Notes under the pieces: model-generated
What the model saw: only the letters and a program-made list of their open reading frames with translations
Told to the model about the DNA's origin: nothing
The model's database searches: none
Shown here: positions 13,516-15,638 of the stretch, piece by piece
How the letters are laid out: each line of letters opens with the position of its first letter
Numbering within the stretch: position 1 is the first letter of the stretch
Virus record (IMG/VR): IMGVR_UViG_2698536618_000020
DNA: 52,086 nt
From: a virus
Lineage: Duplodnaviria > Heunggongvirae > Uroviricota > Caudoviricetes
Reading direction: 5' to 3' (one strand)
Translations under genes and position numbers: made by a program

Positions 13516-13671
13516 ATGAAGCAGCAAAAGGCGATGTTAGTCGCCCTGATCGTCATCTGTATTACCGTCATTGTGACGGCACTGGTAACGAGGAAAGACC
13601 TCTGCGAGGTACGAATCCGAACCGGCCAGACGGAGGTCACTGTCTTCACAGCTTACGAACCTGAGGAGTAA
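13516..13671 (+). CDS. hok: Hok/Gef-family type I toxin
   Basis: 51 aa 'MKQQKAMLVALIVICITVIVTALVTRKDLCEVRIRTGQTEVTVFTAYEPEE', matches E. coli HokD/RelF as I recall it; AAGGAGAAG SD; longer in-frame upstream ORF (13459) is Mok-like. Confidence 0.85.
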   Translation: MKQQKAMLVALIVICITVIVTALVTRKDLCEVRIRTGQTEVTVFTAYEPEE

Positions 13672-13740
13672 GAGACCAGGCGAGGGAGAAATCCCTCGCC
13701 ACCTCTGATGTGTCAGGCATCCTCAACGCACCCGCACTTA

Positions 13741-13762
13741 ACCCGCTTCGGCGGGTTTTTTC
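13741..13762 (+). terminator. intrinsic terminator after hok
   Basis: ACCCGC-ttcg-GCGGGT hairpin followed by TTTTTTC. Confidence 0.7.
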
Positions 13763-13880
13763 ACGTACTGTGGTTGTGAATACGATCGGTATTAGGCTAT
13801 GCTAACAACATTAGCCTGACTAATTTTGTATTGACTTGATTTTTGTTAAAGAACAGGACGGAGAAGTAAGGGTACACCCA

Positions 13881-14060
13881 ATGAGCTACGCACTAAAAAA
13901 ACACCCGCGATTGACTATTCCCCCTCGCGATAAAAGCGTTGTGGCAGCTCCGCGCCCGGCTATCGATGAAAATTGCACTCATCGTGAGCAGGTGAAAAAT
14001 GCTTTCGATTTCGGTTTTTCTCGTTACGAGAAGGCAATGGAAGAACTTTCAAAAGTGTAA
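13881..14060 (+). CDS. putative antitoxin partner of Doc-family toxin (unassigned fold)
   Basis: 59-aa ORF from ATG (longer TTG frame from 13836), ends 18 bp before toxin start; no similarity to Phd recognised. Confidence 0.4.
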   Translation: MSYALKKHPRLTIPPRDKSVVAAPRPAIDENCTHREQVKNAFDFGFSRYEKAMEELSKV

Positions 14061-14078
14061 TGATGGGTATTGTGCTCT

Positions 14079-14564
14079 ATGGCTGAGATTGTTGAAGGAG
14101 TGCACTACCTTTCGTTTGATGATCTTACCGAAATTAATCGCCTTTTAATTGAGCTTCAAACACCAGATGAACCTGTTAGTGTGCTGAGTGTTGATAATTT
14201 AAGTTCTTCTCAGTCTCGTCCCAGCATGGTTCGATGGTATGAACAGACTAATGACATGTTTGTACTGGCATCAGTATTGATTGAAAGTCTGATTCAGAAT
14301 CATCCATTTGCTAATGCAAACAAACGAACAGCTATGATGGCTGGTTATGTCTTCTTGTTGTTGAATGGCTATGAGTTAACAGCACCAGGCGATGAAATCG
14401 TGGAAATGGCAGAGGGACTGGCCTGCAAAACCTATACTCGAGAAGATCTCGAGAACTGGTTGTGTTATTGGTCTCGTGCGTATGACAGCCGGGAATTATG
14501 TAAAACAGGCGCAACTATTGTTTTGTATGAAACTATCAAGCTTAAAATAGAACAGCAAAACTAA
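14079..14564 (+). CDS. doc: Doc-family (Fic fold) toxin
   Basis: 161 aa; Doc-type motif HPFANANKRTAMMAGYVFLLLNGY (HxFx[ND][AG]NKR). Confidence 0.8.
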   Translation: MAEIVEGVHYLSFDDLTEINRLLIELQTPDEPVSVLSVDNLSSSQSRPSMVRWYEQTNDMFVLASVLIESLIQNHPFANANKRTAMMAGYVFLLLNGYELTAPGDEIVEMAEGLACKTYTREDLENWLCYWSRAYDSRELCKTGATIVLYETIKLKIEQQN

Positions 14565-14577
14565 AGGTGCTTCTAAT

Positions 14578-14605
14578 GAAAACCCGCTTCGGCGGGTTTT
14601 GTTGT
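14578..14605. terminator. bidirectional intrinsic terminator between convergent doc and higA-like genes
   Basis: AAAACCCGCTTCGGCGGGTTTTGTTG; A-run and T-run flank hairpin. Confidence 0.7.
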
Positions 14606-14614
14606 ATTGGAGTA

Positions 14615-14932
14615 TCATGATATTACCTGGATTCCGTTTTTCTCTACGACTGAAAGAAGGCGAAGAGCGGCACCTCCCGGCCGTTTTACACCACGTTCCC
14701 AGTCTGATATCAGGTTTTTACTGACGTTGAGGTATCTGGCAAAAACAGGTTGAGACAGATGCTCTCGTTCGCGCAGTGCACGGATCCTTTCCGGAGACAT
14801 TACCGGCGCTGGCTGGAGACAAGTTTCATCGAATTCTCGCATAGTCTGTTTCGTTACTGCGCCGATATCATGAAGCGATTCCATCATTTCATGTACGGAT
14901 GCAAGCGCATCACTGCGGTAATTTTTACTCAT
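14615..14932 (-). CDS. XRE-family HTH antitoxin (HigA-like)
   Basis: 105 aa; C-terminal HTH 'LSQPVFARYLNVSKNLISDWERGVKRPGGAALRLL'; GGAGG SD; immediately downstream of RelE-like toxin gene. Confidence 0.75.
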   Translation of the reverse strand: MSKNYRSDALASVHEMMESLHDIGAVTKQTMREFDETCLQPAPVMSPERIRALREREHLSQPVFARYLNVSKNLISDWERGVKRPGGAALRLLSVVEKNGIQVIS

Positions 14933-14979
14933 TGGGTACCTCCGTAAACTGACCCTGTAGAATCAGTTGTGCCAGTTGT

Positions 14980-15294
14980 TCATCTGTTAGATTGAGTACG
15001 TGAGGAGCCCCTTCCGAAATGCACTTCCTCAGTAGCGGTTATATTTTCACGTTCATTTTTTGCGTATGCATATACGAAAAAGGCCCTTGTGCCGACGCGA
15101 TAGAAAATGATTGTGCGATAACCGCCAGATTTGCCGCCACCGACTCGTGGCAGACGTTGCTTGATAACGCCGTTACCCAGGTTTGCTGAGATAAGCCCGT
15201 TATCAGCCTGTTTAACAATTTCGCGCAGTGACTGGTCGGATATTTTGTTTTTGCGTGCAAATCGCTCAAACCAGGCGTTTTTAAAAATGCGCAT
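14980..15294 (-). CDS. RelE/ParE-superfamily toxin (HigB-like / DUF1044-like)
   Basis: 104 aa from ATG (longer frame to 15357); motif 'RLPRVGGGKSGGYRTIIFYRVGTRAFFVYAYAKNERENI'; toxin-then-antitoxin order; palindrome TAACAC-ATA-GTGTTA just upstream (15315-15329). Confidence 0.7.
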   Translation of the reverse strand: MRIFKNAWFERFARKNKISDQSLREIVKQADNGLISANLGNGVIKQRLPRVGGGKSGGYRTIIFYRVGTRAFFVYAYAKNERENITATEEVHFGRGSSRTQSNR

Positions 15295-15638
15295 TTTTTG
15301 TTCCGTTATTAATGTATAACACATAGTGTTACATTGCGTAGGGATCTGCAATGCCATCAGTTTGACAACGTCGCGTATCCGGGATTATATTCATCGCACG
15401 CCAGCAAAATCTGGCGTCGGGATTAGGAACCCCGGATAGAAACCGCGACAGAGACACGCCGCGAGCGTGTTTTTTATTGTCGTATGCACACGCACATCTG
15501 AATTATGGTGGGGCGTATAGGGGAGCTGAAAAGCTCGCCGGTTGGTTTCCCGGTAGTTCCTAACCCTGTACGTCTCGCCACCCGATGATTAGGAACCTGA
15601 CGGTGGTGATAGTTTAGAAACCACTCGAGGGCGTCATT

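What the first reader, a model, noticed from the sequence alone, without database searches (positions are those of the whole stretch)
13836..14605. Doc-family toxin with a non-Phd-like upstream partner
The Doc motif HPFANANKR is clear, but the 59-aa protein encoded just upstream does not resemble Phd/YefM by eye. Either the antitoxin is of a different fold (a possibly novel pairing) or the cognate antitoxin is missing (orphan toxin).
Basis: partly seen in the sequence, partly recalled or inferred. Interest (0 to 1): 0.5.

Follow-up and report, generated by a model that had tools for sequence, protein, structure and literature searches.

The report
Doc toxin with a minimal antitoxin
An E. coli prophage carries an 841-bp insert encoding a Doc-type toxin and a conserved, unnamed 59-residue partner that looks like an antitoxin reduced to its toxin-binding helix, with no recognisable DNA-binding domain.

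Summary
ORF 14079-14564 is a Doc-family toxin (TIGR01550 E 1.3e-35) with an intact HPFANANKR motif. The 59-aa ORF 13881-14060, 18 nt upstream, matches no Pfam or NCBIfam family.

The "orphan toxin" reading is rejected. A 55-59-aa homolog lies directly upstream of Doc in 21 of 21 related loci, from Serratia, Providencia and Yersinia to Pseudomonas and Gilliamella, and in two Pseudomonas phages examined. It is the only other conserved gene there, and it is under purifying selection.

The partner is not Phd/YefM (no PF02604 match; hhalign finds nothing). Its invariant C-terminal amphipathic helix (residues 34-57 in the AF2 model) weakly resembles the Doc-binding C-termini of AbrB- and RHH-type Doc antitoxins, always in the same register. 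Residues 1-33 are proline-rich coil with a near-invariant IPxRDK motif. No family member carries a DNA-binding domain.

Best reading: a two-gene type II toxin-antitoxin module with a minimal antitoxin, carried as an insert bounded by an exact 20-bp terminator repeat. Genomes with the empty site exist. Binding, toxicity and regulation are inferred, not shown. I rate it a new variant of a known kind, of moderate interest.

The parts
13740..13759 (+). Copy 1 of the exact 20-bp direct repeat AACCCGCTTCGGCGGGTTTT. It is the terminator hairpin of the resident hokD gene and marks the left boundary of the inserted cassette.
   Evidence: the repeat finder family D2: two identical copies 841 nt apart. 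Only 2 matches in the window against 0 expected. An artificial junction made by deleting 13760-14600 is found contiguous in other E. coli genomes.
13760..13880 (+). 5' non-coding leader of the cassette, the presumed promoter and operator region. It contains the inverted repeat AGGCTA (13794-13799) N12 TAGCCT (13812-13817). No strong sigma-70 consensus was found.
   Evidence: The consensus scan found no promoter here. The inverted repeat is not significant on its own (p 0.31). Across 20 loci, upstream palindromes are enriched (summed arm length 136 against 108 +/- 4.3 in shuffles) but are not conserved in sequence.
13881..14060 (+). Gene for the 59-aa putative minimal antitoxin (phrog_2208; RefSeq WP_000119356.1 'hypothetical protein'). 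Residues 1-33 are basic, proline-rich coil with the motif RLxIPPRDK. Residues 34-59 form an amphipathic helix, HxxQVKNAFDFGFSRYEKAMEELSKV.
14079..14564 (+). Gene for the 161-aa Doc-family toxin (WP_000818160.1). It has a subfamily-specific C-terminal extension (YDSRxLC followed by a variable tail).
14301..14327 (+). Codons for the Doc active-site motif HPFANANKR (H75-R83).
   Evidence: Read directly from the sequence. H75, F77, N79, N81, K82 and R83 are invariant in A2. The signature HXFX(D/N)(A/G)NKR is quoted in PMC13034048.
14579..14600 (+). Intrinsic-terminator hairpin after doc. It contains copy 2 of the 20-bp repeat (14581-14600) and marks the right boundary of the cassette.
   Evidence: Terminator scan and repeat search. 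The same 14-nt hairpin core follows doc in Citrobacter L005 and Xenorhabdus L012 and L014.

Best explanation
This is a self-contained two-gene type II toxin-antitoxin module carried as an 841-bp insert (a 'moron') in the nin region of a lambdoid E. coli prophage.

The downstream gene encodes a Doc kinase. By family inference it phosphorylates EF-Tu and arrests translation.

The upstream 59-aa protein is its cognate antitoxin in a minimal form. Its C-terminal about 26 residues (H34-V59) form an amphipathic helix that docks in the Doc groove, as the C-terminal bent helix of Phd or EFPhd does. Its N-terminal 33 residues replace the usual DNA-binding domain with a disordered, basic, proline-rich segment carrying a conserved IPxRDK motif of unknown role.

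Shown here: gene identity, intact motif, strict two-gene synteny, purifying selection, absence of any known DNA-binding domain, the helix prediction, and the insertion boundaries. Inferred: toxicity, neutralisation by helix docking, and the lack or non-canonical nature of autoregulation.
For: - **Doc identity:** TIGR01550 E 1.3e-35 and an intact, invariant motif. The closest solved relative is E. faecalis Doc 9VZC, E 1e-12.
- **Strict pairing:** a 55-59-aa homolog ends 11-19 nt upstream of Doc in 21 of 21 loci across Enterobacterales, Pseudomonas, Gilliamella and Entomomonas, and in Pseudomonas phages Sirocco and LPPA56.
- **Only two conserved genes:** the small ORF and Doc are the only ORF clusters shared by at least 4 loci within about 2.2 kb upstream and 2.7 kb downstream of the Doc start; flanking genes otherwise differ.
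- **Selection:** dN 0.14-0.38 with dS saturated.
- **Decay pattern:** Doc is frameshifted in 2 loci while the small ORF stays intact, the pattern expected for a toxin and its antidote.
- **Helix:** AF2 predicts helix 34-57 at pLDDT 84-93 and coil for 1-33. The hydrophobic stripe V38, F42, F46, Y49, M53, L56 is invariant or nearly so in A1.
- **Similarity to Doc antitoxin C-termini:** hhalign against AbrB-type Doc antitoxins gives P 0.0011 over 46 columns, ending at both C-termini; against RHH-type, P 0.004.
- **Enrichment test:** a family HMM run against 1384 ORFs from distant Doc loci places Doc-upstream antitoxins in 7 of the top 11 ranks (hypergeometric 5e-12). Six of the seven align at their extreme C-terminus.
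- **Register with a solved complex:** from the conserved His to the C-terminus is 26 residues both here (H34-V59) and in EFPhd (H54-79). EFPhd 52-79 is the bent helix seen in the Doc groove.
- **Register with Salmonella Phd:** hot spots F56, M60, H63, L67, L70 (PMC9207808) align with F42, F46, Y49, M53, L56. HMMER picks this same register, but the score is not significant.
- **No DNA-binding domain:** all 39 clusters found among 1.8 billion representatives are short, 38-95 aa apart from two long repetitive proteins hit over 25-29 residues only, and none is fused to a known DNA-binding domain.
- **Discrete insert:** it is bounded by an exact 20-bp repeat, and the empty site is present elsewhere.
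Against: - No experiment and no complex model supports binding.
- Similarity to the canonical P1 Phd C-terminus is not detectable statistically (0.4 bits to the Salmonella peptide).
- The similarity to AbrB/RHH-type C-termini is weak (best single E 0.026 in a 1384-ORF database; hhalign probability 21%). It could partly reflect shared composition of short K/E-rich helices, and some of the enriched hits are near-duplicates of each other.
- The AF2 model of Doc was poor (pLDDT 52.5), so no structural comparison was possible.
- The conserved IPxRDK motif is unexplained by this model.
- Palindromes near the likely promoters in many loci hint at some operator-binding activity that a domain-less antitoxin would not obviously provide.
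Confidence: 0.75

Rival explanations
1. The 59-aa protein is a complete antitoxin that also autoregulates. Its basic N-terminal segment (K6, K7, R10, R16, K18, R25, with the IPxRDK motif) would be a novel minimal DNA-binding element, for example a beta-ribbon formed when two antitoxins are brought together by Doc. It would bind a palindrome at the cassette promoter.
For: The N-terminal motif is near-invariant across the family: I13, P14 and R16 are each present in at least 90% of 37 members, even in the shortest ones that start right at the motif. The segment is basic. Best inverted repeats upstream of the antitoxin start are longer than in shuffles across 20 loci (136 against 108 +/- 4.3). 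Several sit between or over promoter hexamers, for example TTGACT-TAATGTAgcttaactTACATTA-TAAT in Providencia. hhalign tentatively aligns RLTIPPRDKSVVAAP with the last beta-hairpin of AbrB-type antitoxins.
Against: The palindromes differ in sequence and spacing between loci while the protein motif is constant. That is not expected if the motif reads the bases. Some of the inverted repeats are terminators of upstream genes. In this window the repeat is not significant (p 0.31) and no consensus promoter was found. AF2 gives coil at pLDDT 58-72. No known DNA-binding family matches.
Confidence: 0.2
2. The N-terminal IPxRDK segment is a second toxin-contact element. It would bind the C-terminal extension specific to this Doc subfamily, or plug the active or substrate site, so that neutralisation needs two interfaces.
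For: In this sample the association is perfect. All 21 Docs paired with the short antitoxin carry the extension (YDSRxLC plus a tail of alternating hydrophobic residues). Docs paired with AbrB or RHH antitoxins end a few residues after the WxxxSR-type position. Both the motif and the extension are conserved.
Against: This is correlation only. No structural model of the complex could be made, and the AF2 model of the Doc tail is low-confidence.
Confidence: 0.25
3. Doc is an orphan toxin, and the upstream ORF is an unrelated or non-neutralising small protein.
For: Neither Pfam nor NCBIfam nor any annotation names the ORF as an antitoxin.
Against: Adjacency is conserved in 21 of 21 loci and in two phages across divergent genera and different flanking contexts. 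The ORF is under purifying selection and its C-terminus resembles other Doc antitoxins. An unneutralised, intact Doc would be expected to be lethal.
Confidence: 0.03
4. The upstream protein is a diverged but standard Phd/YefM antitoxin.
For: It sits upstream of Doc. Its C-terminal residues can be placed in register with Phd hot spots.
Against: There is no PF02604 match for any of 37 members. hhalign against the Phd alignment aligns 7 columns at probability 1%. The protein is 14 residues shorter than P1 Phd (73 aa). Residues 1-33 are proline-rich, with no predicted strands.
Confidence: 0.02

Closest known systems
Phd-Doc of phage P1 and of Salmonella (PDB 3K33, 3DD7; PMC9207808)
   Same: It is a two-gene operon with the antitoxin first, on a prophage. 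The toxin is Doc-family with the NKR-type motif. The antitoxin's last about 22-26 residues are a hydrophobic-striped helix, with aromatic or aliphatic residues at the positions of Phd hot spots F56, M/F60, H/L63, L67 and L70, followed by three residues to the C-terminus.
   Different: There is no Phd/YefM N-terminal DNA-binding domain, and no statistically detectable sequence similarity to Phd. Doc is 161 aa against 126 aa, with an extra C-terminal extension, and matches P1 Doc only at E 1e-4.
E. faecalis EFPhd-EFDoc (PDB 9VZC; PMC13034048)
   Same: This is the closest solved Doc (E 1e-12). EFPhd residues 52-79 form a bent helix in the Doc concave surface. The 26 residues from its His54 to the C-terminus align without gaps to H34-V59 here (KHNELYKEL against RYEKAMEEL).
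   Different: EFPhd (79 aa) has an AbrB-like beta-dome DNA-binding domain at residues 1-55 that recognises a palindromic operator. The protein here has only a 33-residue proline-rich segment. Only 3 of the 26 aligned residues are identical.
AbrB/SpoVT-type and RHH-type Doc antitoxins (upstream of Doc in loci L024-L045)
   Same: They share a C-terminal motif of the form (F/Y)xxAxxxVxx(K/R)(Y/H/N)xxx(L/M)xxL(A/S)x at the extreme C-terminus. hhalign gives P 0.0011 and 0.004, and HMM rank enrichment is 5e-12.
   Different: Those proteins are about 62-89 aa, with a recognisable GNS-loop AbrB domain or an RHH strand-helix-helix. That domain is absent here.
Phd-C neutralising element fused to Panacea (C. 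doosanense Doc:PanA; PMC10440598)
   Same: It shares the concept that a short linear Doc-binding C-terminal element is sufficient for neutralisation and can be attached to different N-terminal parts. That paper also notes single-domain antitoxins consisting of the neutralisation element alone.
   Different: Here the element is attached to no globular domain at all. The isolated Phd-C in that study needed a SUMO tag to be stable, whereas this family is naturally short.
PaaA2 of the paaR2-paaA2-parE2 module of E. coli O157 prophages (from my own knowledge, not tested here)
   Same: It is a small (about 60 aa), largely disordered prophage antitoxin without a DNA-binding domain.
   Different: Its toxin (ParE) is unrelated, and that system has a third gene encoding the regulator. 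No conserved third gene exists here.

Membership tests
Doc (death-on-curing) toxins, TIGR01550 / Pfam PF02661 Fic/DOC | Profile match above the curated cut-off | tested here: met
   TIGR01550 scores 122.2 bits against a cut-off of 38.65. PF02661 scores 44.5 bits against 24. phrog_577 'Doc-like toxin' E 1e-50.
Doc (death-on-curing) toxins, TIGR01550 / Pfam PF02661 Fic/DOC | Doc-type active-site signature HXFX(D/N)(A/G)NKR | tested here: met
   HPFANANKR at residues 75-83 (nt 14301-14327). H, F, N, N, K and R are invariant in 16 homologs. The signature is as quoted in PMC13034048.
Doc (death-on-curing) toxins, TIGR01550 / Pfam PF02661 Fic/DOC | Fic/Doc all-helical fold | tested here: inconclusive
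   The AF2 model from a 16-sequence alignment is all-helical but has mean pLDDT 52.5, too poor for a fold search. Sequence matches to solved Doc chains 9VZC, 3K33 and 3DD7 support the fold indirectly.
Doc (death-on-curing) toxins, TIGR01550 / Pfam PF02661 Fic/DOC | Kinase activity on EF-Tu and growth arrest | not testable with these tools
   Inferred from the family only.
Phd/YefM antitoxins (PF02604) | Profile match, with an N-terminal YefM-like DNA-binding domain | tested here: not met
   No Pfam or NCBIfam match for the window protein or for any of 37 members. hhalign against the P1-Phd alignment gives probability 1% over 7 columns. AF2 shows coil for residues 1-33.
AbrB/SpoVT/MazE-type antitoxins (PF04014) | N-terminal swapped-hairpin domain of about 45 residues | tested here: not met
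   No Pfam match. Only 33 residues precede the helix. hhalign aligns residues 7-26 to the last hairpin of AbrB-type Doc antitoxins with low per-column confidence.
Doc-binding C-terminal neutralisation element ('Phd-C'-like) | Amphipathic helix of about 22-28 residues at the extreme C-terminus of the protein encoded upstream of Doc | tested here: met
   AF2 helix 34-57 at pLDDT 84-93. Invariant hydrophobic stripe. Position directly upstream of Doc in 21 of 21 loci.
Doc-binding C-terminal neutralisation element ('Phd-C'-like) | Sequence relatedness to C-termini of established Doc antitoxins | tested here: inconclusive
   Weak but consistent for AbrB and RHH types (hhalign P 0.0011 and 0.004; rank enrichment 5e-12). 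Not detectable for P1 or Salmonella Phd.
Doc-binding C-terminal neutralisation element ('Phd-C'-like) | Physical binding in the Doc groove and neutralisation | not testable with these tools
Type II toxin-antitoxin module | Conserved, closely spaced two-gene operon that moves as a unit | tested here: met
   21 of 21 loci plus 2 phages, with a gap of 11-19 nt and differing flanks. In E. coli it is an 841-bp insertion/deletion, and the empty site exists.
Type II toxin-antitoxin module | Autoregulation through an antitoxin DNA-binding domain | tested here: not met
   No DNA-binding domain is detectable in any member. Whether the module is regulated in some other way is unknown.
Three-component TA (regulator + domain-less antitoxin + toxin, such as paaR2-paaA2-parE2 or omega-epsilon-zeta) | A third, conserved regulator gene next to the pair | tested here: not met
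   Within about 2.2 kb upstream and 2.7 kb downstream of the Doc start in 21 loci, only the two genes form clusters shared by at least 4 loci.
Class I Fic antitoxins (YhfG/FicA type) | Inhibitory motif (S/T)xxxE(G/N) | tested here: not met
   Reading the 59-aa sequence directly, no S or T is followed at +4 and +5 by E and G/N. The motif definition comes from my own knowledge of the Fic literature.

The most novel reading that the evidence does not exclude
This would be a previously undescribed antitoxin family (phrog_2208, no Pfam or NCBIfam model) that neutralises Doc without any DNA-binding domain. In this reading, its conserved N-terminal IPxRDK segment is a new functional element. It could be a second clamp on the Doc C-terminal extension specific to this subfamily, or a minimal DNA- or protease-recognition motif. 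The module would then be regulated and triggered differently from the Phd-Doc paradigm of conditional cooperativity.
Probability: 0.3. Interest if true: 0.55.

Novelty: new variant of a known kind. Interest (0 to 1): 0.4.

Why it matters
Doc modules are the textbook case of antitoxin-mediated autoregulation through conditional cooperativity. A widespread prophage-borne Doc subfamily whose partner is only about 59 residues long, with no DNA-binding domain, would be a natural minimal antitoxin. It would test whether a linear neutralising element alone is enough in vivo, and how such a module is kept in check and triggered.

It would also give a functional name to a protein family that is 'hypothetical' in RefSeq, including in the O104:H4 outbreak strain, and 'unknown function' in PHROGs. 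The clean 841-bp insertion bounded by a duplicated terminator is a tidy example of how such inserts enter the lambdoid nin region, next to two other toxin-antitoxin modules.

Tried and rejected
- **Complex prediction.** No complex model exists.
- **Doc structure.** AF2 from 16 homologs gave pLDDT 52.5, so I did not run fold searches on it.
- **PDB search with the antitoxin profile.** Only chance hits appeared (ribosomal protein S25 at E 0.19).
- **PADLOC.** No defence-system model matches either protein meaningfully.
- **Phage DNA search.** Only the hok terminator flank matched, at 7% coverage. A protein-level search was needed to find phage copies.
- **Literature.** Searches for the RefSeq accessions and for a described Doc partner of this kind found nothing. 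The library is incomplete, so this is not proof of absence.
- **Promoter.** The consensus scan found nothing in 13760-13880. By eye, TTGTGA-N18-TATGCT is possible but matches only 8 of 12 positions, so I left it unresolved.
- **Alternative Phd register.** An alignment of FSRYEKA with Phd F44-A50 was dropped because it is too short and non-significant.

Full report
**What is there.** The window is a lambdoid E. coli prophage. The stretch 13700-14650 is 99.8-99.9% identical to prophages in 120 of 5426 complete E. coli genomes, including the O104:H4 outbreak lineage. In O104:H4 strain 2011C-3493 it lies in the nin region, between hokD and a RelE/HTH pair, downstream of the replication genes and upstream of ninB...Q.

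ORF 14079-14564 (+) encodes a 161-aa Doc-family toxin. It matches Pfam Fic/DOC at E 2.9e-11, NCBIfam TIGR01550 at E 1.3e-35, and phrog_577 'Doc-like toxin' at E 1e-50. The motif HPFANANKR (nt 14301-14327) fits the Doc signature HXFX(D/N)(A/G)NKR as quoted in PMC13034048. Its key residues are invariant in 16 homologs of 63-95% identity. The closest solved relative is E. faecalis Doc 9VZC (E 1e-12); P1 Doc matches at E 1e-4.

The 59-aa ORF 13881-14060 ends 18 nt upstream of the Doc start and is in the same frame. It matches nothing in Pfam, NCBIfam, PADLOC or the PDB sequence set. It matches only phrog_2208, 'unknown function'. RefSeq calls it a hypothetical protein.

**Is the small ORF a real partner?** A scan of one genome per species found 45 loci with Doc relatives. 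Twenty-one of them carry close relatives, at 45-77% identity. In all 21 a 55-59-aa homolog of the small ORF ends 11-19 nt before the Doc start. These loci come from Serratia, Providencia, Citrobacter, Yersinia pestis, Morganella, Hafnia, Xenorhabdus, Kluyvera, Proteus, Arsenophonus, Pseudomonas, Stutzerimonas, Gilliamella and Entomomonas.

The flanking genes differ from locus to locus. Clustering all ORFs in a window of about 2.2 kb upstream to 2.7 kb downstream of the Doc start gives only two clusters shared by at least 4 loci, the small protein and Doc, each present in 21 of 21. The same pair sits next to the integrase or the genome end of Pseudomonas temperate phages Sirocco and LPPA56.

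Against homologs from other genera, dN is 0.14-0.38 while dS is saturated, so the protein sequence is under purifying selection. In two loci (Proteus penneri and Arsenophonus nasoniae) the Doc frame is split while the small ORF is intact. That is the decay order expected for a toxin and its antidote, although sequencing error in draft assemblies cannot be excluded. 'Orphan toxin' is therefore rejected.

**What kind of protein is the partner?** A profile search of 1.84 billion cluster representatives found only 39 clusters. Apart from two long repetitive proteins hit over 25-29 residues, all are 38-95 aa, and none is fused to a known domain. None of 37 members matches a Pfam family beyond isolated chance hits.

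The family alignment shows three parts:
- a near-invariant N-terminal motif, (R)LxIPxRDK;
- a variable proline-rich linker;
- a conserved His followed by QVKNAFxFGFxRYEKAMEELSKV, which runs to the C-terminus.

AF2 with the family alignment predicts one helix, residues 34-57 (pLDDT 84-93), and coil for residues 1-33 (pLDDT 58-72). Conserved hydrophobic residues V38, F42, F46, Y49, M53 and L56 fall at i, i+4, i+8, i+11, i+15, i+18, close to a heptad-like spacing, and so form one face of the helix.

The protein is not Phd/YefM. There is no PF02604 match, and hhalign against a P1-Phd alignment returns only 7 columns at probability 1%.

**Relation to other Doc antitoxins.** In the more distant Doc loci, the upstream genes are ordinary AbrB-type antitoxins (MIKxLxKxGNS...) or RHH-type antitoxins of about 62-89 aa. 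They share a C-terminal motif, for example ...EAFQSALAKVNNRYPKALKTLAE and ...DFxxAxEYVLKKNAELYKRLA.
- hhalign of the 59-aa family against the AbrB-type set gives P 0.0011 over 46 columns, ending at both C-termini. Against the RHH-type set it gives P 0.004.
- As an independent check I ran the family HMM against all 1384 ORFs of at least 35 aa in the 24 distant loci. Seven of the top 11 hits are Doc-upstream antitoxins, out of 18 such ORFs (hypergeometric 5e-12). Six of the seven align the profile's C-terminal end to their own last residues.
- Individual scores are weak (best E 0.026), and some of the enriched hits are near-duplicates. I read this as consistent but modest evidence that the C-terminal helix is the same kind of Doc-binding element.

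Two published systems give a register.
- In E. faecalis, EFPhd residues 52-79 form the bent helix seen in the Doc groove (PMC13034048). The PDB chain confirms HQKKLQQMMENSKQKHNELYKELVT at 54-78 of 79 residues. From that His to the end is 26 residues, the same as H34-V59 here, and the two align without gaps (KHNELYKEL against RYEKAMEEL).
- In Salmonella Phd, alanine scanning found hot spots F56, I59, M60, H63, L67 and L70, with F56 and L70 as 'gatekeepers' (PMC9207808). In the gapless C-terminal alignment, five of the six correspond to F42, F46, Y49, M53 and L56. HMMER chooses this register, but at 0.4 bits.

The NetFlax study showed that such a 'Phd-C' element is modular. When stabilised, it neutralises Doc on its own (PMC10440598).

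**Mechanism proposed.** This is a type II module. Doc would phosphorylate EF-Tu (family inference). The 59-aa protein would neutralise it by docking its C-terminal helix in the Doc groove.

The usual DNA-binding half is missing, and there is no conserved third gene that could supply a regulator. Autoregulation is therefore either absent, provided by the prophage or host, or carried out in an unknown way by the basic N-terminal segment.

Two observations remain open.
- Upstream regions of the 20 loci are enriched in palindromes, several of them inside apparent promoters. These palindromes are not conserved in sequence, and the one in this window is not significant.
- This Doc subfamily has a C-terminal extension (YDSRxLC plus a tail of alternating hydrophobic residues) that is absent from Docs paired with AbrB or RHH antitoxins. 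It co-occurs perfectly with the IPxRDK-bearing antitoxin, which suggests a second interface.

**The cassette as a mobile unit.** An exact 20-bp direct repeat, AACCCGCTTCGGCGGGTTTT, occurs at 13740-13759 (the hokD terminator) and at 14581-14600 (the terminator after doc). The two copies are 841 nt apart, and there are only 2 matches in the window against 0 expected.

A synthetic sequence joining 13560-13759 to 14601-14800 matches other E. coli genomes as one contiguous piece at up to 99.5% identity. In all, 168 genomes cover at least 80% of it. The Doc pair is therefore a precise 841-bp insertion or deletion: leader, two genes and terminator, the classic layout of an added prophage cassette.

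The same hairpin core follows doc in Citrobacter and Xenorhabdus loci. It therefore travels with the cassette, and its identity with the hok terminator probably provided the recombination point.

**Comparison and novelty.** The toxin is an ordinary member of the Doc family. The module works like Phd-Doc, but the antitoxin fails the membership tests for Phd/YefM and for AbrB-type antitoxins. Its only link to known Doc antitoxins is the probable shared C-terminal element.

Antitoxins without a DNA-binding domain are known in principle: PaaA2 and epsilon (from my own knowledge), and the general statement in PMC11869752. I found no description of this family or of a Doc partner of this form, but the searchable library is incomplete.

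I rate it a new variant of a known kind. It is interesting to toxin-antitoxin specialists and easy to test, but not surprising in concept. Confidence in the main reading is about 0.75.

Noticed in passing
window 13519-13671 (+), 13881-14564 (+), 14615-15357 (-): Three toxin-antitoxin modules sit in tandem within about 2 kb of the prophage nin region. They are hokD (type I, PF01848 E 1.2e-22), the Doc pair, and a RelE-like toxin (PF06296 E 1.4e-37) followed by an HTH antitoxin on the minus strand, in HigBA-like gene order.
   Followed up: partly
window 14980-15357 (-): The RelE-like ORF matches only positions 1-95 of the 120-position Pfam profile. It then ends in an unrelated tail (…HFGRGSSRTQSNR). 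RefSeq annotates only 85 aa in the O104:H4 copy. It may be C-terminally altered or decaying.
   Followed up: no
window 13740-13759 and 14581-14600; L005 4496-4509, L012 4494-4507, L014 4415-4428: The terminator hairpin core CCCGCTTCGGCGGG follows doc in Citrobacter and Xenorhabdus as well, and is identical to the resident hokD terminator in E. coli. It looks like the crossover point by which the cassette entered or left the prophage.
   Followed up: partly
L020 4001-4455 (Proteus penneri) and L021 3998-4442 (Arsenophonus nasoniae): The Doc homolog is split into two reading frames while the small upstream ORF is intact. This may be toxin-first decay of the module or an assembly error.
   Followed up: no
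window 14475-14564 (Doc residues about 133-161): This Doc subfamily has a conserved YDSRxLC segment and a variable tail with alternating hydrophobic residues (for example IKLKIE or FKIKID). Docs paired with AbrB or RHH antitoxins lack both. The feature co-occurs perfectly with the short IPxRDK-bearing partner.
   Followed up: partly
L003 3672-3802, L007 3675-3805 and L008 1505-1635 (the 131 nt before each antitoxin start codon; Providencia, Morganella): These loci have a clear TTGACT-N17-TATAAT/TATAAG/TATAAC promoter with a palindrome filling the spacer (TAATGTAgcttaactTACATTA; TAATGAAAGttagCTTTCATTA). The outer TAATG/CATTA arms are conserved but the centre is not. The layout looks like an operator, but the binder is unknown.
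   Followed up: partly
L047 1450-2181 (Pseudomonas phage Sirocco) and L048 1501-2175 (phage LPPA56): The same small-ORF-plus-Doc pair sits at the integrase or attachment end of Pseudomonas temperate phages. In LPPA56 both genes, including the Doc homolog, are annotated only as hypothetical proteins.
   Followed up: partly
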